32,000 bases of DNA from Erysipelotrichaceae bacterium MTC7 (GCA_001695645.1 LVZN01000078.1:1-32000), one strand, 5' to 3'. Numbered from the stretch's first letter, positions 3,430-24,615 are shown. Numbers and translations: made by a program. Notes: a model not told the origin generated them from the sequence alone.

Positions 3430-4563
3430 TCAGTTTTGCAATGCGTTTGACACCAATTTGACACCATCTTGCTTTTCAATGTATGCATTTAGTTGATTAC
3501 CAACATCACTTTTTTCATGATCTAAGTGGGCATAAATATCTGCAGTAATACGTATCGACTTATGGCCCATGAGTCTTTTCGCTTCTTGTAATGGCACTCC
3601 GGCATAAAATAGCATTGTACAATAATTATGGCGAAATACATATGGTGTAAGCCCGTCGCTATTGGCTGGTGGACGATTCTCTTGTAGTGCATAACGATTC
3701 ATAGCGTTTATAATTGTCTCCCAAAACCGTCGATATGCTTGTCCTGTGATGAGTTGATTATCTTTTACATTACGAAAGAAATAATCATCTCCAATATTAG
3801 AAATATAGAACTTGAAAAATGGAACTAAGTTATTCAAGATTGGCAAGTACCTTTTTCCTGCATCTGTTTTAGTCTCTTTCAAAATTGGTCTATTCTTCTT
3901 AAACACAAGAGCACGTTGAATAACCAATATTTTTTTGTTGAAGTCAAAATCTTTTGTATGGATAGCACGAGCTTCTTCAGGTCGTAAACCGAAATATTTG
4001 ATTAGATATACGAATGCTTGTTGTCGTTCAGTGAATTCAGCATGATCAGATAAGTAATTTTCATTATCGTTAAGTGGTCTTTTATCACTAGCAACATACT
4101 TTGGAATAACTAATCCATTGCAAGGATTTTTGCTTATCCAACCATCAATGATAGCTAGTTCAAAGATTTGTTTTGCACATATCTTTATCTTTTGACATGC
4201 ACGTGGATGTGCAATGTTTTCATTAATGATAGTTTGAATATGTTGCCTAGTAATCTCATCAAGATTTAAGTGGTCAAGACTTGCAAGGTGATTTAGCGTT
4301 GTAAGGTACATGCTTTGAGTGGCGTCGGATATATTAATACACTTTATCTTATACCATTCTTCTTTATACTTTCCAAACTTCACTTTGCTATTAACGTTTA
4401 TTCCAGCTGCAATTGAGAACTTCAGTTGGTCAGCTTGTTGCTCAACTTCTTTCTTTGTTTTACCATAAACGGTTTTATAGTTTGATTTGTTCGTTGTAGG
4501 ATCTATTCCAACATTTACTTTTATTTGCCATCTTCCATCTTTTCTCTTGGTTGCTTTTGGCAT
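3430..4563 (-). CDS. int: Tyrosine site-specific integrase
   Basis: N-terminal KRKDGRWQIKV SAM-like arm-binding region. C-terminal catalytic signature: FRHNYCTMLF, MGHKSIRITADIYAHL (R..HxxR..Y). RBS GGAGG lies upstream. Confidence 0.95.
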   Translation of the reverse strand: MPKATKRKDGRWQIKVNVGIDPTTNKSNYKTVYGKTKKEVEQQADQLKFSIAAGINVNSKVKFGKYKEEWYKIKCINISDATQSMYLTTLNHLASLDHLNLDEITRQHIQTIINENIAHPRACQKIKICAKQIFELAIIDGWISKNPCNGLVIPKYVASDKRPLNDNENYLSDHAEFTERQQAFVYLIKYFGLRPEEARAIHTKDFDFNKKILVIQRALVFKKNRPILKETKTDAGKRYLPILNNLVPFFKFYISNIGDDYFFRNVKDNQLITGQAYRRFWETIINAMNRYALQENRPPANSDGLTPYVFRHNYCTMLFYAGVPLQEAKRLMGHKSIRITADIYAHLDHEKSDVGNQLNAYIEKQDGVKLVSNALQN

Positions 4564-6799: not shown

Positions 6800-7288
6800 T
6801 TAGTCCATACCTCTTTCAGCTCTTATACCCTTGATGACAGTTAGAATACGCTCCATGTCTTCAGGACTTAGATCCTTTGTTTTATCAAATAATAAGACTA
6901 AATTGTCATTTTCTCGAATAGAGTTATATATTTCTAATAATTCTGGATTGTTCTTTTCTAGATATTCGGTAGTGGGGTTAGATGGCTTGATAATGTCTGA
7001 GAATGATTTGTAATCATCATTTTCTTTATCGTTAAAATCAAAATAGAACATACCTTTGGAAAGTAATTCATCAATATCCAAATCAAGTGCCTTGCATATT
7101 AACTCCAAGGTATCCATGTCTACACGAGATTTACCATCCTCATATCTTTTGAGTGTGCTTTTTGTTTTCACTCCACCGATTGCTTCGCTTAATCGATCCA
7201 AACTTATATCTTTTTCTATTCTACGTTCTTTAAGAACTTTTCCGAGTTGCTTGTACAATTCCATATCAAATTTGTTAAGAGCAGTCAT
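6800..7288 (-). CDS. XRE-family HTH repressor (CI/ImmR-like, no S24 peptidase domain)
   Basis: N-terminal HTH_XRE pattern (LKERRIEKDISLDRLSEAIG...STLKRYEDG). Divergent from a cro-like gene across an operator-rich region. Confidence 0.85.
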   Translation of the reverse strand: MTALNKFDMELYKQLGKVLKERRIEKDISLDRLSEAIGGVKTKSTLKRYEDGKSRVDMDTLELICKALDLDIDELLSKGMFYFDFNDKENDDYKSFSDIIKPSNPTTEYLEKNNPELLEIYNSIRENDNLVLLFDKTKDLSPEDMERILTVIKGIRAERGMD

Positions 7289-17002: not shown

Positions 17003-17064
17003 CGACCGAATATGTTTGCTATTCATAAAAGCAAACAAAATTGGTTGCACTTACTGGAGGGTAC

Positions 17065-19338
17065 ATGCAAGAGTATGAAAACGATTTATTAGAAATATTA
17101 GAGAGTGTTGATCCATCCACTCTCAATTACCAAGAATGGACGAATATAGGGATGGCCCTCAAGCATGAAGGCTATACCGCGATGGATTGGGACCAATGGA
17201 GCAGTAAAGATTCCAGTAGATACCATGCTGGTGAATGTTTCAAGAAGTGGGATACTTTTCAAGGAACAGGAACACCAGTTACTGGAGGCACCATTGTTCA
17301 ATATGCAAAAGAGAATGGATGGACACCACCATATAGAAGTGGTGGTCCTGATTATGAATTGGATTGGGATTCTACAATTAACGCTAAAGATGAATTAGTA
17401 GTTGTGGATCCTGCGTGGGTTGAAGGTAAGGAAATAAAAGAACCTAAGTACTGGAAACCGGTTAAGGATTTGATTACTTACTTATCAACTTTATATGAGT
17501 CTACTGACAATGTTGGTTATGTCACAACTTCCTATCAAAATGATGCAGGAAAGTACGTACCGACAAAAGGGAATTACGATCGTACAGCTGGAGAATTAAT
17601 TGAACAATTAAACAAATGCAATGAAGATATTGGAGCTGTATTGGGTGATTATCAAGAAGAAGTAGGTGCTTGGATTCGATTCAATCCGTTAGACGGTAAT
17701 GGAATCAAGAACGACAACGTTAGTGAGTATCGATATGCATTAGTAGAATCTGATGCAATGGAATTAGAGAAACAATATGCAATTATTACCGAATTAGAAT
17801 TACCTGTCGCATGTTTGGTCCATAGTGGAAAGAAATCAATACATGCAATCGTTAAAGTGCATGCTGCAAATTACGATGAGTATAGAAAGCGTGTTAATTA
17901 CCTTTACGATGTTTGTAAAAAGAATGGATTAAAGGTAGATGAACAGAACAAAAATCCAAGTCGATTGTCTCGTATGCCTGGAGTTACTCGTAATGGTCAC
18001 AAACAATTTCTTATTGCAACTAACATAGGAAAAGAAAGTTGGCAAGAATGGCAAGAGTGGATTGAAGCGGTGAATGATGATTTGCCTGAACCTGAAGCAA
18101 TTGAAGATATTTGGGAAAATCTTCCTGATTTATCTCCAGTATTAATCGATGGAATCCTTAGACAAGGACATAAGTTGCTTATGGCTGGACCAAGTAAGGC
18201 AGGGAAGTCATTTGCACTTATTGAGTTGTGCATTGCAATCGTTGAAGGACAAAAGTGGCTTGGTTTCCAATGTACACAAGGGCGTGTGCTGTATGTCAAT
18301 TTAGAGCTTGATCGAGCGTCATTGTTGCATCGTATTAAAGATGTGTACACTGCATTAGGAATACAGCCTAGCAATCTTAAAAACCTTGATGTATGGAACC
18401 TTAGAGGTAAATCAGTACCGATGGACCAACTTGCTCCTAAACTCATTAGAAGAGCTCAAAAGAAGAACTATATTGCAATTGTGATTGACCCTATTTATAA
18501 GATCCTAACTGGTGATGAAAACAGCGCAGATCAAATGGCACACTTCACCAATCAATTCGATAAGGTATGTACAGAATTAGGCAGTGCAGTTATCTATTGT
18601 CACCACCATAGTAAAGGTGGACAAGGTAATAAACGTTCAATGGACCGTGCTTCAGGAAGTGGAGTATTTGCTCGTGATCCTGATGCATTGCTTGACTTGG
18701 TTGAGTTGGAATTACCAAACACATTAGTTGGCCAATTACAAAATGAAGAACTACGTAAATATTATGGAAAGGTTCTTAACGATAAGGCTTCAGAATATGC
18801 ATCTAGTTCAGTAGAAAATGATGACTATATGAATTATAGGAAGCTGTATGATCATCTGCAGATGGTACTAAATGCGAACAGCTTGGCCGAAGTGGATAGA
18901 CAAACTGAATTAATTAAAGAGAAGGTAAACGGACGTACAGGATGGAGAATCGAAGGAACTCTCAGAGAGTTCGCTAGGTTCAAACCGCTCAACTTATGGT
19001 TCGATTACCCAATACATTCAATTGATACAATTGGCCACCTTAAGGATATAGATCCTGAGGGTGCATACCCATATAAACAGAAAGAGAAGCGTAAAGATAA
19101 AGCTGAGAAAGAAAAAGAGAAAGCAGTTAATAATTTTGTAGTAGAATATGAAAATTTGGCATTTAATGGCGAAGAAGTTTCAGCTAATGACTTAAGTGAG
19201 TCTCTGGATGTGAATCAAAAAACACTATTAGCGTGGCTTGGTAAAGGTCAAAAGCAAAAGAAGCAATTAGCAGACATGTACGAGAAATATATGGGAGAAG
19301 ATGGTAGGAGTTATATACGAAAAAAAGAAAAAAAATAG
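17065..19338 (+). CDS. Primase-helicase: PriCT-like N-terminus, AEP primase-polymerase core, AAA_25/RepA-like ATPase
   Basis: YQEWTNIGMALKHEGYTAMDWDQWS (PriCT-like). VHSGKKSIHAIVKV (AEP-type SGxxxH). AGPSKAGKSFALIELC Walker A and AIVIDPIYK Walker B. GGAGG RBS precedes the ATG at 17065. Confidence 0.85.
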   Translation: MQEYENDLLEILESVDPSTLNYQEWTNIGMALKHEGYTAMDWDQWSSKDSSRYHAGECFKKWDTFQGTGTPVTGGTIVQYAKENGWTPPYRSGGPDYELDWDSTINAKDELVVVDPAWVEGKEIKEPKYWKPVKDLITYLSTLYESTDNVGYVTTSYQNDAGKYVPTKGNYDRTAGELIEQLNKCNEDIGAVLGDYQEEVGAWIRFNPLDGNGIKNDNVSEYRYALVESDAMELEKQYAIITELELPVACLVHSGKKSIHAIVKVHAANYDEYRKRVNYLYDVCKKNGLKVDEQNKNPSRLSRMPGVTRNGHKQFLIATNIGKESWQEWQEWIEAVNDDLPEPEAIEDIWENLPDLSPVLIDGILRQGHKLLMAGPSKAGKSFALIELCIAIVEGQKWLGFQCTQGRVLYVNLELDRASLLHRIKDVYTALGIQPSNLKNLDVWNLRGKSVPMDQLAPKLIRRAQKKNYIAIVIDPIYKILTGDENSADQMAHFTNQFDKVCTELGSAVIYCHHHSKGGQGNKRSMDRASGSGVFARDPDALLDLVELELPNTLVGQLQNEELRKYYGKVLNDKASEYASSSVENDDYMNYRKLYDHLQMVLNANSLAEVDRQTELIKEKVNGRTGWRIEGTLREFARFKPLNLWFDYPIHSIDTIGHLKDIDPEGAYPYKQKEKRKDKAEKEKEKAVNNFVVEYENLAFNGEEVSANDLSESLDVNQKTLLAWLGKGQKQKKQLADMYEKYMGEDGRSYIRKKEKK

Positions 19339-19805: not shown

Positions 19806-20200
19806 TGAGAATCTATTTAGCCGGTCCTATTACAGGAACTGATGATTATGTGGAACGTTTCAAAGAAGTTGAAGAGTCGCTAACAAGTCCTGGTATAGAA
19901 GTTGTGAATCCAGTTACTGATCTGATACTAGATTATGAAGAGTACATCATTCGTGGATTGAAGATGCTAGCTGAATGTGATTGGATCTTTATGCTAGATG
20001 GTTGGGAAAATAGCAACGGAGCAAAACTAGAATACCAATATGCGAAAACAGTAGGAAAGAAGATTGTGTTTCAAGGTGATGACAACATGAATTTCTTTAT
20101 CGAAAAAAGTTTAGCAGGAATAACTGGCTTCTTTCAAAACTTAGCAAATGCAGTTGGTAGATCCTTTCCACTAGATTCACAGGAGTTAGATGATGAGTAG
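19805..20200 (+). CDS. DUF4406 (nucleoside 2-deoxyribosyltransferase-like) protein
   Basis: IYLAGPITG...F...E..L...G..V.NP and CDWIFMLDGWENSNGAKLEYQYA patterns. TAATG overlap start; an alternative ATG is at 19799. Confidence 0.7.
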   Translation: MRIYLAGPITGTDDYVERFKEVEESLTSPGIEVVNPVTDLILDYEEYIIRGLKMLAECDWIFMLDGWENSNGAKLEYQYAKTVGKKIVFQGDDNMNFFIEKSLAGITGFFQNLANAVGRSFPLDSQELDDE

Positions 20201-20594
20201 CATGAGCTTCTTTCTTCCGATGAAGAAAATCCCAACAGTAACACATCAGCAAAAGAAAGTGTCAGTCGTAAAAGGCAAACCAGTTTTCTATGAGGAAGAT
20301 GATTTGAAAGCTGCACGATCTAAATTCATGGCAATGCTTGGCCAAAAAGCTCCAAGCGATAAATTCAAAGGACCTATCCGGTTGACTACTTGGTGGTGTT
20401 TCCCTGTGACTAAGAATAAAAGCGATGGAGAGTACAAAGTCACTAAGCCCGATACAGACAACCTAGTAAAACTCTTTAAGGACTGTATGACTGCTGTGGG
20501 ATTTTGGAAGGATGATGCAGAAGTGGCTAGTGAAGTGATTGAAAAGTACCATGCTGACATCGTGGGTATTTGGGTGAAGGTAGAAGAGTTATGA
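20190..20594 (+). CDS. rusA: RusA-family Holliday junction resolvase
   Basis: KPDTDNLVKLFKDCMTAVGFWKDDAEV is the RusA catalytic-region pattern. Confidence 0.85.
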   Translation: MMSSMSFFLPMKKIPTVTHQQKKVSVVKGKPVFYEEDDLKAARSKFMAMLGQKAPSDKFKGPIRLTTWWCFPVTKNKSDGEYKVTKPDTDNLVKLFKDCMTAVGFWKDDAEVASEVIEKYHADIVGIWVKVEEL

Positions 20595-20865: not shown

Positions 20866-21105
20866 ATGAATTATAAGTTAGTAAACATAGTAGGCGAAGA
20901 TGTTTTAGCAAAGTACGAGAAATTACTTGGTGAAGAATGTGAAATAGTTGGTTACTTCAATGTGGGAACCAGTATGAGCTTAATGTTTGAAGATGGAGTA
21001 CTACAAACTTCGCCTATCGAAGGTGTAGTAGAAGAACCTGAACAAATAATTATTCACACAAAGAACTCAATTTACACGTTAGGAAAGAATTTGGAGGAAA
21101 AATGA
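20866..21105 (+). CDS. Hypothetical phage protein
   Basis: ORF with GAAAGGAAA RBS. Confidence 0.6.
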   Translation: MNYKLVNIVGEDVLAKYEKLLGEECEIVGYFNVGTSMSLMFEDGVLQTSPIEGVVEEPEQIIIHTKNSIYTLGKNLEEK

Positions 21106-21230
21106 TGTTTACTATGTTTGATACATTGATTACATTTATATACACACTTGGTATTGTGTTTATTTCAACATTGATTATCATAATTGTTTATAGCGTGTAC
21201 AAATTTATCAAAACGGATTTGAAGAAGTAG
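21102..21230 (+). CDS. Small single-pass membrane protein, 42 aa
   Basis: Below the ORF-track cutoff. ATGATG overlaps the upstream TGA and GGAGG lies upstream. Hydrophobic core LITFIYTLGIVFISTLIIIIVYSV. Confidence 0.45.
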   Translation: MMFTMFDTLITFIYTLGIVFISTLIIIIVYSVYKFIKTDLKK

Positions 21231-21251: not shown

Positions 21252-21842
21252 ATGAACGAAATCGAACAACTAAAAAGAGATCTGCAAAGTTATGGCTATT
21301 ACAAGAAGTTATTAACAGAGTTGGATATACACATTTATAGCCTGAAGCAAAAGATAAAACGCGAGGAAAGCCCTCACGCAATTTCATACAGTGGCGAAAT
21401 AACAACGTACATATGCAATACATGTGGGCATATGGAATTAGTCCCTAGTGGGCTTAAAAACGTCGAATGTAGGAAATGTGATTCGACTATGATGATGTTG
21501 AAAGGTCAACAAGAATCAATAGCAAAAGCGAAACTAATCAAAGTGGATGCAGGGAAGAATGTTAGCAGCCTGATCATTACTCTAGCTTCATTGGAAAAAC
21601 TAAAAGAAGAATACAAAAAGGATATAGACAGGTTAGGTCTTGATAAAGGGCTCTCTATGCTTGAAGATGAGCAACGCATTATAATCGAAAAACATTACTT
21701 CGAAGGCATTTGTTATGAACATGTGGGGATGATGTTACATAAATCACGCAAAGCAGTTAGATATGCAAATCAAAAAGCACTCAAGGTTATTTACAACAAC
21801 TCGCAAAAAAGGGCCTACATGCCCTTCGATTTTGATGTATAA
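21252..21842 (+). CDS. Late-gene transcriptional regulator with sigma-70 region-4-like HTH (ArpU/RinA-like position) and an inserted CxxC..CxxC zinc ribbon
   Basis: C-terminal EDEQRIIIEKHYFEGICYEHVGMMLHKSRKAVRYANQKALKVI resembles region 4. CNTCGH...CRKCDS zinc ribbon. It is the last gene before the packaging module. Confidence 0.6.
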   Translation: MNEIEQLKRDLQSYGYYKKLLTELDIHIYSLKQKIKREESPHAISYSGEITTYICNTCGHMELVPSGLKNVECRKCDSTMMMLKGQQESIAKAKLIKVDAGKNVSSLIITLASLEKLKEEYKKDIDRLGLDKGLSMLEDEQRIIIEKHYFEGICYEHVGMMLHKSRKAVRYANQKALKVIYNNSQKRAYMPFDFDV

Positions 21843-21883
21843 TGGTCATAGGTCGCAAGTGTGACCAATCAAAACAAATAACT

Positions 21884-21911
21884 AGCACTCTATCATTAGA
21901 GTGCTTTTTTA
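21884..21911 (+). terminator. Terminator after the late regulator
   Basis: AGCACTCTA-tcat-TAGAGTGCT followed by T6. Confidence 0.8.
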
Positions 21912-22236
21912 ATGCAGATACCTGATGTTTCATCTCATCCCCTACACAAATTGAGATGATCCTTTTTGCATATTATGTTTCTCCTTACTTACATAAATAC
22001 ATTCATACTTTATTTGCTCGCATCAGGTATCGGCGTTAGAAAAATTGACATGGTGGACCTCCACTAAAGATAATTCCTCAACCAGCAAAAGAGTCTAGAA
22101 AATGAATGATAAATGGTCGAAAATGATAAGAAAAGTTTATAATAATACAAGAAAAGTTGAATTTTAATAAGAAAAAGTTTAATTATTTTGGGCTATTTTG
22201 TTGATTTGCCGGGGAGAACCATGGTAATATACGTGT

Positions 22237-22298
22237 GTAAAGAAACTGTACCGGTTTCTCGACAAAGTAAAAGACAGGATTGCCGTCCTGTCTTTTTT
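22237..22298 (+). ncRNA. Candidate ~60-nt small RNA (antisense regulator of the adjacent small ORF)
   Basis: Extended -10 promoter TTGATT (22201-22206), N18, TGgTAATAT (22222-22230). Stem-loop AGAAAC-tgtaccg-GTTTCT. Terminator at 22272-22298. No ORF. Confidence 0.45.
22268..22298. terminator. Bidirectional terminator shared by the convergent small RNA and small-ORF mRNA
   Basis: AGACAGGA (22272-22279) pairs with TCCTGTCT (22286-22293). An A-run precedes the stem and a T-run follows it. Confidence 0.75.
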
Positions 22299-22321
22299 AT
22301 GTATATTTGTCTTTTTGAAAC

Positions 22322-22471
22322 CTAGTTAATTAATCTCTTGTTAATAAGTAAAGCATTACCATAAAGATAATAACTTCGCTCATATAACTCCTGATTTAAT
22401 GTTGTACCGGTTTCTCGACAAATATACATGGTTGTTGGTGCAAAAGCACCGAGATAAATGTTTTTAAACAT
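22322..22471 (-). CDS. Small protein, 49 aa, unknown function (candidate type I toxin-like ORF)
   Basis: AAGGAGG RBS 6 nt upstream of the ATG at 22471. Extended -10 promoter TGaTATAAT at 22590-22582 (minus strand). The 65-aa track ORF was trimmed to the RBS-supported start. Confidence 0.5.
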   Translation of the reverse strand: MFKNIYLGAFAPTTMYICRETGTTLNQELYERSYYLYGNALLINKRLIN

Positions 22472-22784
22472 ATTATCCTCCTTCTTGTTTTTATTAAAGA
22501 GCCACAAGAAAGGAAACAAAAAATGGATAGGCTACACAATAACCTAGATCCTGAAGTGAAGAAATCTTCAAGAACAACTGTATTATATCATGCAATATAT
22601 GTCTTTTTTTGAGAAAAAACTGAAAACTTTTAGTTTTTTTTCATTTGTTTTCAAGATTTTTCCTGGATTTCAAAAAAAGACGATAAATAAAGGATTTTCA
22701 TCACTTTTTACCAATAAACACTAAAACGAAAAGCGGTTATCACACAATTTCACATAATTAACAAATTGAAAGGAGGTAGATACT

Positions 22785-23246
22785 ATGGCAAAGCAAAGTA
22801 AATGGGATACAAACGTAAAACCTAATCTAGAATTAATCGAAGCATGGGCTAGACGTGGAGCAATTGAAGCGGACATTGCTAAGAACCTAAACGTGGCACG
22901 GTCTACCTTCGAGAATTACAAACGTGATTATCCTGAATTAAGAGAAGCGTTACGAAACGGAAAAGAACCTGCTGATCTACAAGTAGAAGCTGCATTGTTT
23001 AAAAAAGCAGTTGGATACGAATATAAAGAAGTACGAAATGAAGTGACAGATGGTGGATGGAAAGAAGTTGTTACTACTAAACAGGTGGCACCTGACACTA
23101 CTGCACAAATCTTTTGGTTGAAGAATAGACGACCAGATTTATGGCGTGATAAACAAGATGTTGAGTTGAGTGGTGAAGTGAACAATCCATTCGAAGGACT
23201 TACTACAGAGGAGTTGAAGGCGCTTGCTAAAGAAGCAAATGATTAG
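22785..23246 (+). CDS. terS: Terminase small subunit
   Basis: N-terminal HTH (ADIAKNLNVARSTFENYKR) and TTAQIFWLKNRRPDLWRDKQ motif, typical of Firmicute phage TerS. Precedes TerL. Confidence 0.85.
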   Translation: MAKQSKWDTNVKPNLELIEAWARRGAIEADIAKNLNVARSTFENYKRDYPELREALRNGKEPADLQVEAALFKKAVGYEYKEVRNEVTDGGWKEVVTTKQVAPDTTAQIFWLKNRRPDLWRDKQDVELSGEVNNPFEGLTTEELKALAKEAND

Positions 23247-24615
23247 ACAAGGAGCAAAGATAGAACTTGCAAAGCGCGAGTTCTTTTCTTTTTGTAACTT
23301 GCTTGCACCAGACTTCTACAAGGAGGATCGTGAATATCTTGTGACTTTATGCAATACACTTCAAGAGTTCTATGAAGGTGATGATGATGTAATTATTATC
23401 AATATGCCACCACGTCATGGGAAATCGCGTACTGCATCTAATTTTGTTGAATGGTTATTTGGTATCAACAGGCAACTAAAGGTGATGACTGGTTCGTATA
23501 ATGAAACACTATCAACTACTTTTTCAAAAGCAGTAAGAAATACGATATCTGAAAGAAAAGCGGATCCAAACATTCCGGTGTATAGTGATGTGTTCCCTGG
23601 AACAAAAATCAAATGGGGAGATGGTGCAATGAACTTATGGAGCCTAGAGGGTGGATTTAATAGTTATCTAGCAACTTCTCCTGGAGGAACTGCAACAGGA
23701 TTTGGGGCCAACTATCTTATCATTGATGACTTGATTAAGAATGCAAAAGAAGCAAACAATGCTCGTATTCTTGAAGAACAATGGGAGTGGTTTGTTAATA
23801 CAATGCTTTCACGAACGGAGGCAGGATATAAAATTATTATCATCATGACTAGATGGCATACAAAGGACCTTGCTGGTCGTGTACTTGATTGGTGCAAAGA
23901 AGAGCATAAAAAGTACAAACACATCAATATGCCAGCATTTGATGAAGATGGCAACATGCTTTGTGATGAAGTGCTTCCCAAACACGAGTACTTGGATAAG
24001 GTAGCTACAATGGGTGAAGATATTGCATCAGCCAACTATCAACAAAAGCCAATTGATATCAAGGGTAAATTATATACATCGTTCAAAACATACGAACGTA
24101 TCCCAGTTGATTCAACAGGACAACCACTTTTTACAAGTATACGTTCTTATACGGATACTGCAGATGAGGGTAGTGATTATTTATGCACAATCATTTGGGG
24201 GATATATGAACATTACTCATATGTACTAGATGTCATATATACTCAATTACCTATGGAAGAAACGGAGCCGATGGTAGCAGCTGCTTTAGACAGTAATAAA
24301 GTAATGACTGCACGTTTTGAGTCCAACAATGGTGGTAAAGGATATGCACGGCAAGTGGCAAGCATATTGGAAGATGATTTGCGAAATTATACGTGTGATG
24401 TGTCTTGGTTTCATCAAAGTTCAAACAAAGTGGCTCGTATACTAACTGCAGCACCATATATTATGAGAAATGTATTGTTTCCAGTTGATTGGAAGAGTCG
24501 TTGGCCTGATTATTATGAAGCAATGAATACATATCAACGAAAAGGAAAGAACGAACACGATGATGCACCGGATGCAACATCAGGAATAAAAGAAACGAAT
24601 GAATTACTTGATTAG
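23239..24615 (+). CDS. terL: Terminase large subunit
   Basis: Walker A-like MPPRHGKSRTAS, Walker B YLIIDDL, C-terminal nuclease region with DTADEGSDY and HDDAPDA. The ATG at 23239 overlaps the terS end; an alternative TTG is at 23224. Confidence 0.9.
   Translation: MIRQGAKIELAKREFFSFCNLLAPDFYKEDREYLVTLCNTLQEFYEGDDDVIIINMPPRHGKSRTASNFVEWLFGINRQLKVMTGSYNETLSTTFSKAVRNTISERKADPNIPVYSDVFPGTKIKWGDGAMNLWSLEGGFNSYLATSPGGTATGFGANYLIIDDLIKNAKEANNARILEEQWEWFVNTMLSRTEAGYKIIIIMTRWHTKDLAGRVLDWCKEEHKKYKHINMPAFDEDGNMLCDEVLPKHEYLDKVATMGEDIASANYQQKPIDIKGKLYTSFKTYERIPVDSTGQPLFTSIRSYTDTADEGSDYLCTIIWGIYEHYSYVLDVIYTQLPMEETEPMVAAALDSNKVMTARFESNNGGKGYARQVASILEDDLRNYTCDVSWFHQSSNKVARILTAAPYIMRNVLFPVDWKSRWPDYYEAMNTYQRKGKNEHDDAPDATSGIKETNELLD

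What the first reader, a model, noticed from the sequence alone, without database searches (positions are those of the whole stretch)
22201..22600. Convergent small RNA and 49-aa ORF sharing a bidirectional terminator and a 20-nt direct repeat: par/Fst-like type I TA architecture
**Seen in sequence.**
1. An extended -10 promoter on the plus strand (22201-22230) drives about 60 nt with a stem-loop, ending at terminator 22272-22298.
2. An extended -10 promoter on the minus strand (TGaTATAAT, 22590-22582) drives a ~100-nt leader. A 49-aa ORF with AAGGAGG follows (22471-22322), ending at the same terminator.
3. TGTACCGGTTTCTCGACAAA occurs as a perfect direct repeat at 22247-22266 (in the small RNA) and 22403-22422 (inside the ORF). 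The two opposite-strand transcripts are therefore 20-nt complementary away from the terminator.
4. In the mRNA leader, CCUUUCUUGU (22513-22504) can pair with ACAAGAAGG of the SD region: 9 bp including one G-U.
5. mRNA 22429-22417 (AUGUAUAUUUGUC, overlapping the target site) is perfectly complementary to 22311-22299 in its 3-prime UTR.

**Established knowledge.** In the pAD1 par (Fst) locus, RNA I and RNA II are convergent. They share a bidirectional terminator and interact through direct repeats, and toxin mRNAs commonly sequester their SD.

**Inference.** This is a type I TA-like or antisense-controlled module in the phage. The peptide is not an obvious membrane toxin, so its activity would be new.
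Basis: partly seen in the sequence, partly recalled or inferred. Interest (0 to 1): 0.68.

Follow-up and report, generated by a model that had tools for sequence, protein, structure and literature searches.

The report
Antisense-controlled small gene in prophage
A prophage of an Erysipelotrichaceae bacterium carries a small cassette in which a roughly 62-base RNA and a 49-codon gene face each other, and matched sequence changes in the one related phage found show that they base-pair, as in RNA-controlled toxin-antitoxin systems, although the peptide resembles no known toxin.

Summary
The 20-nt direct repeat (22247-22266 / 22403-22422) is far beyond chance.

The main new evidence comes from the only relative I could find, a Breznakia prophage (L081). 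It has the same layout with a different repeat. Six of the 20 repeat positions differ between the two phages, and both copies changed identically in each phage. Three further helices also covary:
- the 5' hairpin of the small RNA;
- a small hairpin at codons 8-12;
- the long-range stem between codons 15-19 and the 3' UTR, where 3 of 13 pairs changed on both sides.

Cognate small-RNA/mRNA duplexes are about -36 kcal/mol. Non-cognate pairs are at background (-17 to -20 kcal/mol). Both mRNAs are unusually structured (z = -7.6 and -10.0) and share one helix plan.

This is therefore very probably a real antisense-RNA/small-ORF cassette with the logic of pAD1 par and a hok-like 3' lock. It is not a member of the Fst family. 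The repeat lies inside the ORF rather than over the ribosome-binding site, and the peptide is an orphan, not hydrophobic, and only about 28% identical between the two phages. Toxicity is untested. I rate it a new variant of a known kind, of moderate interest.

The parts
22201..22230 (+). Predicted promoter of the small RNA: -35 TTGATT (22201-22206), 15-nt spacer, TG-extended -10 TGGTAATAT (22222-22230).
   Evidence: Sequence. In L081 the -35 is 100% and the extended -10 is 89% identical while the spacer is 47% identical. Below the threshold of the generic scan.
22237..22300 (+). Predicted small RNA of about 62-64 nt: 5' hairpin, single-stranded CGACAAAGUA, terminator hairpin, U-run. The 5' end is inferred, not mapped.
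   Evidence: Folds of -24.3 kcal/mol (window) and -22.9 kcal/mol (L081) with the same shape. The RNAalifold consensus keeps both hairpins. No Rfam family matches.
22241..22259 (+). 5' hairpin of the small RNA (AGAAACUG / CGGUUUCU). Its loop and 3' arm are part of the repeat.
   Evidence: In L081 it is AGAGAUU / AGUCUCU. One pair changed on both sides (A-U to G-C), two pairs changed on one side and were kept, and none was broken.
22247..22266 (+). Direct repeat copy 1 (TGTACCGGTTTCTCGACAAA), the pairing region of the small RNA.
   Evidence: The L081 counterpart is ATTAAGCAAGTCTCTCGACAA at 4064-4084.
22269..22296 (.). Shared bidirectional intrinsic terminator (11-12 bp stem, 4-6 nt loop).
   Evidence: Called on both strands. 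The stem is identical in L081, but the loop is its reverse complement (TTGCCG versus CGGCAA; one search gives a 28/28 minus-strand match).
22299..22322 (-). 3' UTR lock of the mRNA. GACAAAUAUACAU (22311-22299) and GGUUUC (22322-22317) pair with codons 15-21, which include the small-RNA target site. The sequence resembles the small RNA (GGUUUC..GACAAA).
   Evidence: Inverted repeat I4. Present in the MFE and centroid folds. The L081 equivalent is 16 bp with 3 pairs changed on both sides. It raises the cost of opening the target site from 3.3 to 17.4 kcal/mol.
22322..22471 (-). 49-codon ORF: MFKNIYLGAFAPTTMYICRETGTTLNQELYERSYYLYGNALLINKRLIN.
   Evidence: It is open only in this frame, with shuffle p = 0.016. 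The L081 counterpart of 46 codons has p = 0.007. No homologues or families.
22403..22422 (-). Direct repeat copy 2. On the mRNA this is the 20-nt site complementary to the small RNA (codons 17-23).
   Evidence: It is the best trans target of the small-RNA 5' part in the whole window (-36.0 kcal/mol, next best about -23).
22417..22429 (-). 5' arm of the long-range stem (AUGUAUAUUUGUC, codons 15-19). It overlaps the small-RNA site by 6 nt.
22437..22450 (-). Small hairpin inside codons 8-12 (GGUGC UUUU GCACC).
   Evidence: In L081 it is GGUAC CACG GUACC at the same place, with one pair changed on both sides.
22477..22513 (-). SD AAGGAGG (22483-22477) and the anti-SD CCUUUCUUGU (22513-22504) that pairs with ACAAGAAGG (22488-22480).
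   Evidence: MFE and centroid folds. In L081 a different leader sequence sequesters the SD and the AUG.
22549..22575 (-). Predicted 5' end of the mRNA and its 5'-terminal hairpin.
   Evidence: Together with the promoter it forms a block that is 88% conserved between flanks that are about 40% identical.
22582..22590 (-). TG-extended -10 promoter of the ORF mRNA (TGATATAAT; TGGTATAAT in L081).
22045..22074 (+). Near-consensus sigma-70 promoter (TTGACA-18-GATAAT) that could give a longer isoform of the small RNA, about 218 nt, ending at the same terminator.
   Evidence: 11 of 12 consensus positions; 90% identical in L081. No conserved ORF lies downstream of it.

Best explanation
This is an accessory ('moron'-type) cassette in a temperate phage. 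It consists of two convergent transcription units that share one bidirectional terminator.

- The minus strand gives an mRNA of about 310 nt for a 49-aa peptide.
- The plus strand gives a small RNA of about 62 nt, and possibly also a form of about 218 nt from the promoter at 22045.
- The two RNAs are complementary at the terminator overlap. Because of the 20-nt direct repeat, they are also complementary at a second site inside the ORF (codons 17-23).

The mRNA is built to be silent. Its SD is paired with an upstream anti-SD. Its small-RNA target site is paired with a 3' UTR segment that imitates the small RNA.

Inferred mechanism. The small RNA binds the site while the mRNA is still being made, or after the 3' lock is removed. 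The resulting duplex of 20 bp or more leads to cleavage or decay (RNase III type) or blocks elongation, so no peptide is made in the lysogen. Full-length locked mRNA forms an inert pool, as in hok and aapA1. The peptide would be made when the small RNA is no longer supplied.

What is shown and what is inferred. Shown by comparative sequence: the pairings are under selection and are allele-specific. Inferred: the existence and ends of the transcripts, the consequence of pairing, and above all that the peptide is harmful (my estimate for that is about 0.35). The confidence given here is for the antisense-controlled small-ORF cassette as a whole, not for toxicity.
For: - Same layout, different repeat. 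L081 has the same layout with a different repeat. Six of 20 positions differ between the phages, with zero differences between the two copies within each phage.
- Allele-specific pairing. Cognate duplexes are -36.0 and -35.2 kcal/mol. Non-cognate duplexes are -20.2 and -17.2. Shuffled controls give -14.4 +/- 2.5. The site is the best target in the window.
- Long-range stem. Three of 13 pairs changed on both sides and none was broken. Two of these changes alter the peptide (Y16C, I17Y).
- Other helices. The small-RNA 5' hairpin and the hairpin at codons 8-12 each have a pair changed on both sides.
- mRNA structure. The mRNA folds have z = -7.6 and -10.0 and share the same helix plan.
- Target-site lock. 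The site costs 3.3 / 4.8 kcal/mol to open in the nascent mRNA and 17.4 / 21.9 in the full-length mRNA.
- ORF. It is open in both phages (p = 0.016 and 0.007) and has a strong SD at the correct spacing.
- Conservation. Conserved islands fall exactly on the promoters, the repeat core and the terminator, while the ORF and leader are 29-53% identical.
- Accessory position. The cassette lies in about 860 nt inserted between a conserved late-promoter/terminator unit and terS. Relative L112 lacks this insert.
- Known parallels. The par architecture is defined in PMC7472228. Locking of a toxin mRNA by its 3' end is described in PMC5416894.
Against: - Only two independent sequences exist, so every covariation count rests on one comparison.
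- There are no transcript data. The promoters are weak matches to consensus.
- The peptide has no transmembrane segment. Its best 15-aa hydropathy window is 0.94, against 2.7 for Fst (the Fst sequence is quoted from memory).
- The peptide has no homologues and is about 28% identical between the two phages, much of that forced by the repeat. This is not what a conserved toxin looks like.
- The pairing site is 49 nt past the AUG, so it cannot block initiation directly.
- Blocking the site in silico does not change SD sequestration in a conserved way.
- The AlphaFold model is uninformative (pLDDT 68).
Confidence: 0.6

Rival explanations
1. A purely RNA-level switch. The two RNAs form a phage-specific regulatory or incompatibility pair, comparable to c4 RNA of P1/P7. 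The ORF is translated only as part of the control, or not at all, and its product has no activity of its own.
For: - RNA structure is clearly under stronger constraint than the peptide. Compensated stem changes alter residues 16-17, and the peptides are about 28% identical.
- The peptide has no homologues and no hydrophobic segment.
- The variable half of the repeat gives orthogonal pairs, as in heteroimmune P1/P7 (from my own knowledge).
Against: - The frame is kept open over 46-49 codons in two sequences that have otherwise diverged almost to saturation (p = 0.016 and 0.007).
- A strong SD sits at the right spacing in both, and both invest in SD sequestration. That is pointless if translation does not matter.
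- No downstream gene on the minus strand could be the regulated target.
Confidence: 0.2
2. An insulator or terminator element of the late operon. In this reading the cassette mainly stops read-through into terS in the lysogen. The convergent minus-strand transcript and the small RNA are by-products or modulators of termination and antitermination.
For: - The cassette lies between a conserved late-promoter/terminator unit (motif TATAATGGTCATAGGTC in six phages) and terS.
- It carries the strongest terminator of the region.
- Antiterminated late transcription would run antisense across the whole ORF.
Against: - A terminator needs neither a 20-nt repeat 156 nt away, nor an SD-led ORF, nor a 3' UTR lock, and all of these covary.
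- Relatives such as L112 manage with the first terminator alone.
Confidence: 0.1
3. DNA-level sites. In this reading the three related sequences (repeat copy 1, repeat copy 2, and the inverted arm at 22299-22311) are binding or recombination sites, for example for packaging or for an invertase, and are not RNA pairing elements.
For: - The location just upstream of terS is where pac or cos sites often lie (from my own knowledge).
- Copy 2 reads like a hybrid of copy 1 and the inverted arm around the shared core GACAAA.
- The terminator loop between copy 1 and the inverted arm is inverted in L081.
Against: - The N-terminal HTH half of TerS is identical in both phages, while the repeat differs at 6 of 20 positions.
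- No recombinase is nearby.
- The sites sit exactly in a frame of promoter, hairpin and terminator and of SD and ORF. Additional helices that are not part of the sites also covary.
- A palindromic stem alone can explain the loop inversion.
Confidence: 0.06
4. A chance repeat or a decaying duplication with no function.
For: Only the weak consensus score of the promoters.
Against: - No matches in shuffles, and none of this length in 444 kb of related DNA.
- Identical parallel changes in both copies in a second phage.
Confidence: 0.02

Closest known systems
par locus of Enterococcus faecalis plasmid pAD1 (RNA I / Fst toxin and RNA II) and par-like loci of Firmicutes
   Same: Convergent promoters and one shared bidirectional intrinsic terminator. 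DNA direct repeats transcribed in opposite directions give a second region of complementarity. The antisense RNA is short. An intramolecular stem hides the SD, and there is a hairpin at the extreme 5' end of the mRNA. (Definition from PMC7472228; features here.)
   Different: There is one repeat of 20-21 nt instead of DRa and DRb. It lies inside the ORF (codons 17-23, 49 nt past the AUG), not over the SD and start codon. A 3' UTR segment locks the target site, and par is not described as having this. The peptide is not an Fst/Ldr peptide: no hydrophobic helix, no PXXXG motif, no Pfam hit. No YUNR U-turn is evident in the loops.
hok/sok of plasmid R1 and aapA1/IsoA1 of Helicobacter pylori
   Same: The full-length toxin mRNA is folded so that it is inert. 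A 3'-end element is involved, and removing or lacking it changes both access for the antisense RNA and translatability (PMC5416894). Here the 3' UTR raises the cost of opening the small-RNA site by 14-17 kcal/mol in both alleles.
   Different: In hok and aapA1 the 3' end pairs with the 5' end and controls the SD. Here it pairs with the middle of the ORF, and the SD is hidden by a separate local stem that does not respond in silico. In those systems the antisense RNAs overlap the 5' region. Those toxins are membrane peptides.
Prophage-borne type I systems of Bacillus subtilis (txpA/RatA, bsrG/SR4, yonT/SR6)
   Same: They are carried on prophages. The RNAs are convergent and overlap at their 3' ends. 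The antitoxin acts away from the ribosome-binding site by promoting RNase III-dependent decay (PMC3531473 and PMC5848175, listed).
   Different: Those systems rely on long continuous 3' overlaps, not on a separate repeat-encoded site. Their toxins are hydrophobic.
c4 antisense RNA and icd/ant of phages P1 and P7 (from my own knowledge)
   Same: It is a phage-encoded antisense RNA whose short recognition sequences differ between related phages, with matching changes in the target. This makes each RNA specific for its own phage. The controlled gene is a small ORF.
   Different: c4 and its targets lie on the same strand and the same transcript. It controls a downstream antirepressor by translational coupling, and it has no shared terminator.

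Membership tests
par / Fst-RNA II type I TA family | Convergent promoters for the toxin mRNA and the antisense RNA | tested here: inconclusive
   TG-extended -10 motifs lie on both strands in the right places, and their hexamers are conserved over a diverged spacer. They fall below the generic scan threshold, and there are no transcript data.
par / Fst-RNA II type I TA family | Shared bidirectional intrinsic terminator giving complementary stem-loops | tested here: met
   The hairpin at 22269-22296 is called on both strands, and its stem is conserved in L081.
par / Fst-RNA II type I TA family | Direct repeats transcribed in opposite directions that give a second complementary region | tested here: met
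   A 20-nt perfect repeat. Both copies covary in L081. Cognate duplexes are about -36 kcal/mol and non-cognate duplexes are at background. There is one repeat, not two.
par / Fst-RNA II type I TA family | Repeat pairing covers the SD and initiation codon of the toxin | tested here: not met
   The site is at codons 17-23, 49 nt downstream of the A of the AUG.
par / Fst-RNA II type I TA family | Intramolecular 5' stem-loop hiding the SD, and a helix protecting the 5' end | tested here: met
   Predicted in the MFE and centroid folds of both alleles, with different sequences. This is prediction only.
par / Fst-RNA II type I TA family | Fst/Ldr-type toxin: about 30 aa, hydrophobic transmembrane helix with a PXXXG(C) motif, charged C-terminal tail | tested here: not met
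   No Pfam hit at E <= 1. The best 15-aa hydropathy window is 0.94 (window peptide) and 0.76 (L081 peptide). The motif is absent.
Type I toxin-antitoxin systems in general | Small protein whose expression stops growth or kills | not testable with these tools
   The peptide is an orphan. The structure model has low confidence.
Type I toxin-antitoxin systems in general | Antisense RNA that base-pairs with the toxin mRNA and prevents its expression | tested here: inconclusive
   Pairing is supported by allele-specific covariation. Its effect on expression has not been tested.
hok/sok-type mRNA control | 3'-end element that keeps the full-length mRNA closed to both antisense RNA and ribosomes | tested here: inconclusive
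   The 3' UTR closes the antisense site in both alleles, but it has no predicted influence on the SD.

The most novel reading that the evidence does not exclude
This would be a new family of phage-borne type I toxin-antitoxin or exclusion modules. The effector would be a fast-evolving, soluble (non-membrane) peptide of about 47 aa. The mRNA would carry a built-in 3' UTR decoy of its own antitoxin RNA, so that the antitoxin can act only co-transcriptionally or after 3' processing. The variable half of the repeat would make each phage's RNA pair orthogonal to its relatives', and so serve as an allele-specific addiction or incompatibility determinant between related prophages.
Probability: 0.25. 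Interest if true: 0.75.

Novelty: new variant of a known kind. Interest (0 to 1): 0.58.

Why it matters
If confirmed, this cassette would extend the par-type design (convergent RNAs, shared terminator, repeat-encoded second contact) in three ways: to a new bacterial family (Erysipelotrichaceae), to a peptide that is not a membrane toxin, and to a target inside the coding region. It would also add a variation on mRNA locking, in which the 3' UTR imitates the antitoxin RNA. The two natural alleles form a ready-made orthogonal pair with six matched changes, so pairing and specificity can be tested directly by swapping them. It also shows that comparative covariation can validate a candidate small-RNA/small-ORF module that gene callers and homology searches miss entirely.

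Tried and rejected
**Searches for more relatives (all negative beyond MTC7 and Breznakia)**
- INPHARED phages, intergenic region: no match.
- IMG/VR, four DNA patterns: only the Breznakia contig.
- IMG/VR, TerS search: 80 loci at 57% identity or less, none with the cassette.
- Metagenome contigs, 20-mer: 6 chance hits in unrelated genes.
- GTDB genomes, sigma-like protein: nothing.
- GTDB genomes, minus-strand promoter block: 19 chance hits.
- Exact-protein look-ups for window proteins: not on record.
- Homologues of the sigma-like protein and of TerS: next best 45% and 66% identity. Their contigs L085 and L112-L114 lack the cassette.

**Peptide**
- Word-indexed search: nothing.
- Full HMMER scan of 1.84 billion representatives: only 2 spurious hits to long repetitive proteins.
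- Pfam and PHROGs: nothing.
- AlphaFold single-sequence model: pLDDT 68, so I ran no fold search.

**RNA families**
- Rfam gave only sub-threshold noise (best hit MicC, 26 bits against a gathering score of 90).

**Ideas considered and dropped**
- The plus-strand ORF 22188-22325 (45 aa) and its L081 counterpart. It has a TTG start with no SD, it runs through the promoter and the terminator, and the SD-like GGGGAG before the internal ATG is not conserved in L081.
- A CRISPR-like or mini-array reading. The repeat is 20 nt and the spacing is 156 nt.
- A transposon target-site duplication. It cannot explain parallel changes in both copies or the covarying inverted repeat.
- Small-RNA binding that exposes or further hides the SD. 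Constrained folds show no conserved rearrangement.

Full report
**Context.** The window is a prophage of Erysipelotrichaceae bacterium MTC7; the sigma-like protein and TerS match that genome at 100%. It is a temperate phage:
- integrase at 3430-4563(-), repressor at 6800-7288(-) and primase at 17041-19338;
- RusA at 20190-20594;
- a zinc-ribbon protein with sigma region 4 at 21252-21842;
- TerS at 22785-23246 and TerL at 23224-24615.

The finding lies in the 940-nt non-coding gap between the sigma-like gene and terS.

**Observation.**
- The repeat TGTACCGGTTTCTCGACAAA occurs at 22247-22266 and 22403-22422 and nowhere else, with none expected in shuffles.
- No perfect direct repeat of 20 nt or more at comparable spacing exists in 444 kb of TerS-related phage loci.
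- The hairpin at 22269-22296 is the best terminator-like site of the region on the plus strand and is also called on the minus strand.
- The 13-nt inverted repeat 22299-22311 / 22417-22429 is perfect.
- The ORF 22471-22322 has AAGGAGG 5 nt before its ATG.
- The two promoters are TG-extended -10 motifs that do not reach the generic scan threshold. On sequence alone they are the weakest part.

**The decisive comparison.** Only one independent relative could be found, a Breznakia sp. prophage (L081). L083 and L084 are identical to it in this region. Its sigma-like protein is 83% identical and its TerS 91% identical to those of the window.

Homology runs from the sigma-like gene to window position 22311. 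It then drops to near-random levels through the ORF and leader. It returns in a 32-nt block at 22566-22597 and again at the terS SD.

L081 nevertheless has the same layout:
- -35 and extended -10, then a 21-nt repeat copy (4064-4084), a terminator (4088-4115) and an inverted arm (4118-4133);
- a 46-codon minus-strand ORF (4280-4140) containing the second repeat copy (4216-4236) overlapped by the other inverted arm (4230-4245);
- an SD, a structured leader, and TGGTATAAT at 4383-4375.

**Covariation.**
- Repeat: over the 20 nt it differs from the window's at six positions (2, 3, 4, 6, 7, 10). In each phage the two copies are identical to each other.
- Long-range stem: 3 of 13 pairs differ on both sides and none is broken. 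L081 extends the stem to 16 bp.
- Small-RNA 5' hairpin: AGAAACUG/CGGUUUCU becomes AGAGAUU/AGUCUCU, with one pair changed on both sides and two pairs changed on one side and kept.
- Hairpin inside codons 8-12: GGUGC/GCACC becomes GGUAC/GUACC.

The base that changed at repeat position 10 is therefore matched in three places: repeat copy 2, the 5' arm of the small-RNA hairpin, and the mRNA target. Gene conversion between the two 20-nt copies cannot explain the inverted repeat or the hairpin arms that lie outside the repeat. Selection on RNA pairing explains all of them.

**Energetics.**
- The 5' part of each small RNA pairs with its own mRNA at -36.0 and -35.2 kcal/mol.
- With the other phage's mRNA the values are -20.2 and -17.2, which is within the range of shuffled targets (-14.4 +/- 2.5, minimum -22.7).
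- In a scan of the whole window, the repeat site is the best target apart from the small RNA's own antisense strand.
- Both mRNAs fold far better than shuffles (z = -7.6 and -10.0, with no shuffle as good).
- Both mRNAs show one helix plan: a 5'-terminal hairpin, a second hairpin, an SD-sequestering stem, the small hairpin at codons 8-12, a long-range stem closing the rest of the ORF, and the terminator.

The long-range stem continues beyond the 13 bp. In the window, GGUUUC (22322-22317, beginning in the stop codon) pairs with GAAACC of the target site. In L081, AUUAGGUAA pairs with UUGCUUAAU of its own, different, target.

The 3' UTR thus resembles the small RNA and occupies its binding site. 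Opening the site costs 3.3 / 4.8 kcal/mol in an mRNA transcribed only as far as the stop codon, but 17.4 / 21.9 kcal/mol in the full-length mRNA. The net gain of small-RNA binding falls from about -20 to between -7 and -2 kcal/mol.

This predicts that the small RNA acts on nascent or 3'-trimmed mRNA, and that the folded full-length mRNA is an inert pool. That is the logic described for hok and aapA1 (PMC5416894). Forcing the site open does not change SD sequestration in a conserved way. I therefore expect control by cleavage or decay of the duplex, or by a block to elongation, rather than by occlusion of the ribosome-binding site.

**Is the ORF real?** In both phages only this frame is open. 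The other two frames have 2-7 stops. The probability of staying open at this composition is 0.016 and 0.007. Both ORFs have a strong SD at correct spacing, both hide it in a stem, and both stop about 10 nt before the 3' lock.

On the other hand, the peptides share only about 28% identity. Part of that (C-R-E-T) is forced by the conserved half of the repeat. Compensated changes in the stem alter residues 16 and 17.

The peptide has no homologue in 5.8 billion clusters or 1.84 billion representatives (two spurious repetitive hits). It has no Pfam or PHROGs family and no hydrophobic segment. Its structure model is of low confidence. I conclude that it is translated, but its activity is unknown.

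**Placement.** A motif TATAATGG(G/T)CATAGG(G/T)C, followed by a short leader and an intrinsic terminator, lies upstream of terS in six divergent phages. In L112 this unit is about 50 nt from terS.

In the window and in L081, about 860 nt of extra non-coding DNA, including this cassette, sits between that terminator and terS. This makes the cassette look like an accessory insertion (a moron). Late transcription, if antiterminated, would run antisense through the whole ORF.

**Comparison with known systems.** The par locus is defined by five features (PMC7472228): convergent promoters, a bidirectional terminator, direct repeats DRa/DRb over the translation start, a 5' stem-loop and upstream helix, and an Fst-type hydrophobic toxin.
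- Met here: the terminator and the repeat principle. The SD-hiding stem and 5' hairpin are met in predicted folds only.
- Plausible but unproven: the promoters.
- Not met: the position of the repeat and the nature of the peptide.

The cassette therefore works like par, with a hok-like 3' lock, but is not a member of the Fst family. Rfam has no family for either RNA.

**Verdict.** This is a real, selected antisense-RNA/small-ORF cassette, and very probably a type I TA-like module of a new variant. Toxicity and the transcripts remain to be shown. The evidence base is one pairwise comparison, so the confidence is bounded accordingly.

Noticed in passing
window 22280-22285; L081 4099-4104: The loop of the shared terminator is the exact reverse complement in the two phages (TTGCCG versus CGGCAA) while the stems are identical. 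The whole 28-nt hairpin of one phage matches the minus strand of the other at 28/28. The loop that the small RNA carries in one phage is therefore carried by the mRNA in the other.
   Followed up: partly
window 21838-21911; L081 3623; L085 1201; L112 2427; L113 251; L114 485: The motif TATAATGG(G/T)CATAGG(G/T)C is conserved and is followed by a short leader. An intrinsic terminator was seen after the leader in the window, L085 and L112. The motif lies upstream of terS in six divergent phages, directly after a sigma-region-4/zinc-ribbon gene in the window, L081 and L085. It looks like a late promoter with a promoter-proximal terminator (similar to lambda PR'-tR'), which suggests antitermination control of the late genes.
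   Followed up: partly
window 21905-21927 and 22021-22043: A 23-nt inverted repeat is 100% conserved in L081, while the 93 nt between its arms are only 45% identical. On the minus strand the interior holds a conserved AAGGAGAA SD and ATG followed by a tiny ORF (MQKGSSQFV in the window, MQINHSCVRGGE in L081). Its function is unknown. It could be a second structured minus-strand element or a small element with terminal inverted repeats.
   Followed up: partly
window 22045-22200: A near-consensus sigma-70 promoter (TTGACA-18-GATAAT, 11/12) is followed by about 125 nt of non-coding sequence that is 84% identical in L081, more conserved than the ORF next to it. This stretch contains AAGAAAAGTT at 22128 and 22149 (21-nt spacing) and a third copy with a 1-nt insertion near 22171. 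No ORF is conserved there. It may be the 5' part of a longer isoform of the small RNA, or a protein-binding region.
   Followed up: partly
window 22311 and 22566: Sequence similarity to the Breznakia phage breaks off exactly at the end of the 3' UTR arm (22311) and resumes at the minus-strand promoter block (22566-22597). The ORF part of the cassette may therefore have been exchanged or may have diverged as a unit, while the small-RNA gene stayed and only its 10-nt variable half followed.
   Followed up: partly
window 21102-21230 (+): A 42-aa strongly hydrophobic ORF with a Lys-rich tail (MMFTMFDTLITFIYTLGIVFISTLIIIIVYSVYKFIKTDLKK) overlaps the stop of the preceding gene. It has the look of a small membrane peptide, more toxin-like in composition than the 49-aa ORF of the finding. 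There is only a weak FixQ hit.
   Followed up: no
L113 270-640: In this distant relative, the space between the conserved late-promoter motif and terS is filled by about 370 nt of comparatively G+C-rich sequence with no called gene and no Rfam match.
   Followed up: no
L073 433-725: There are three copies of GGTTCAAGATGTA, one of which forms half of a 10-bp hairpin, upstream of terS in an unrelated TerS-family phage. They may be iterons or another repeat-plus-hairpin arrangement.
   Followed up: no
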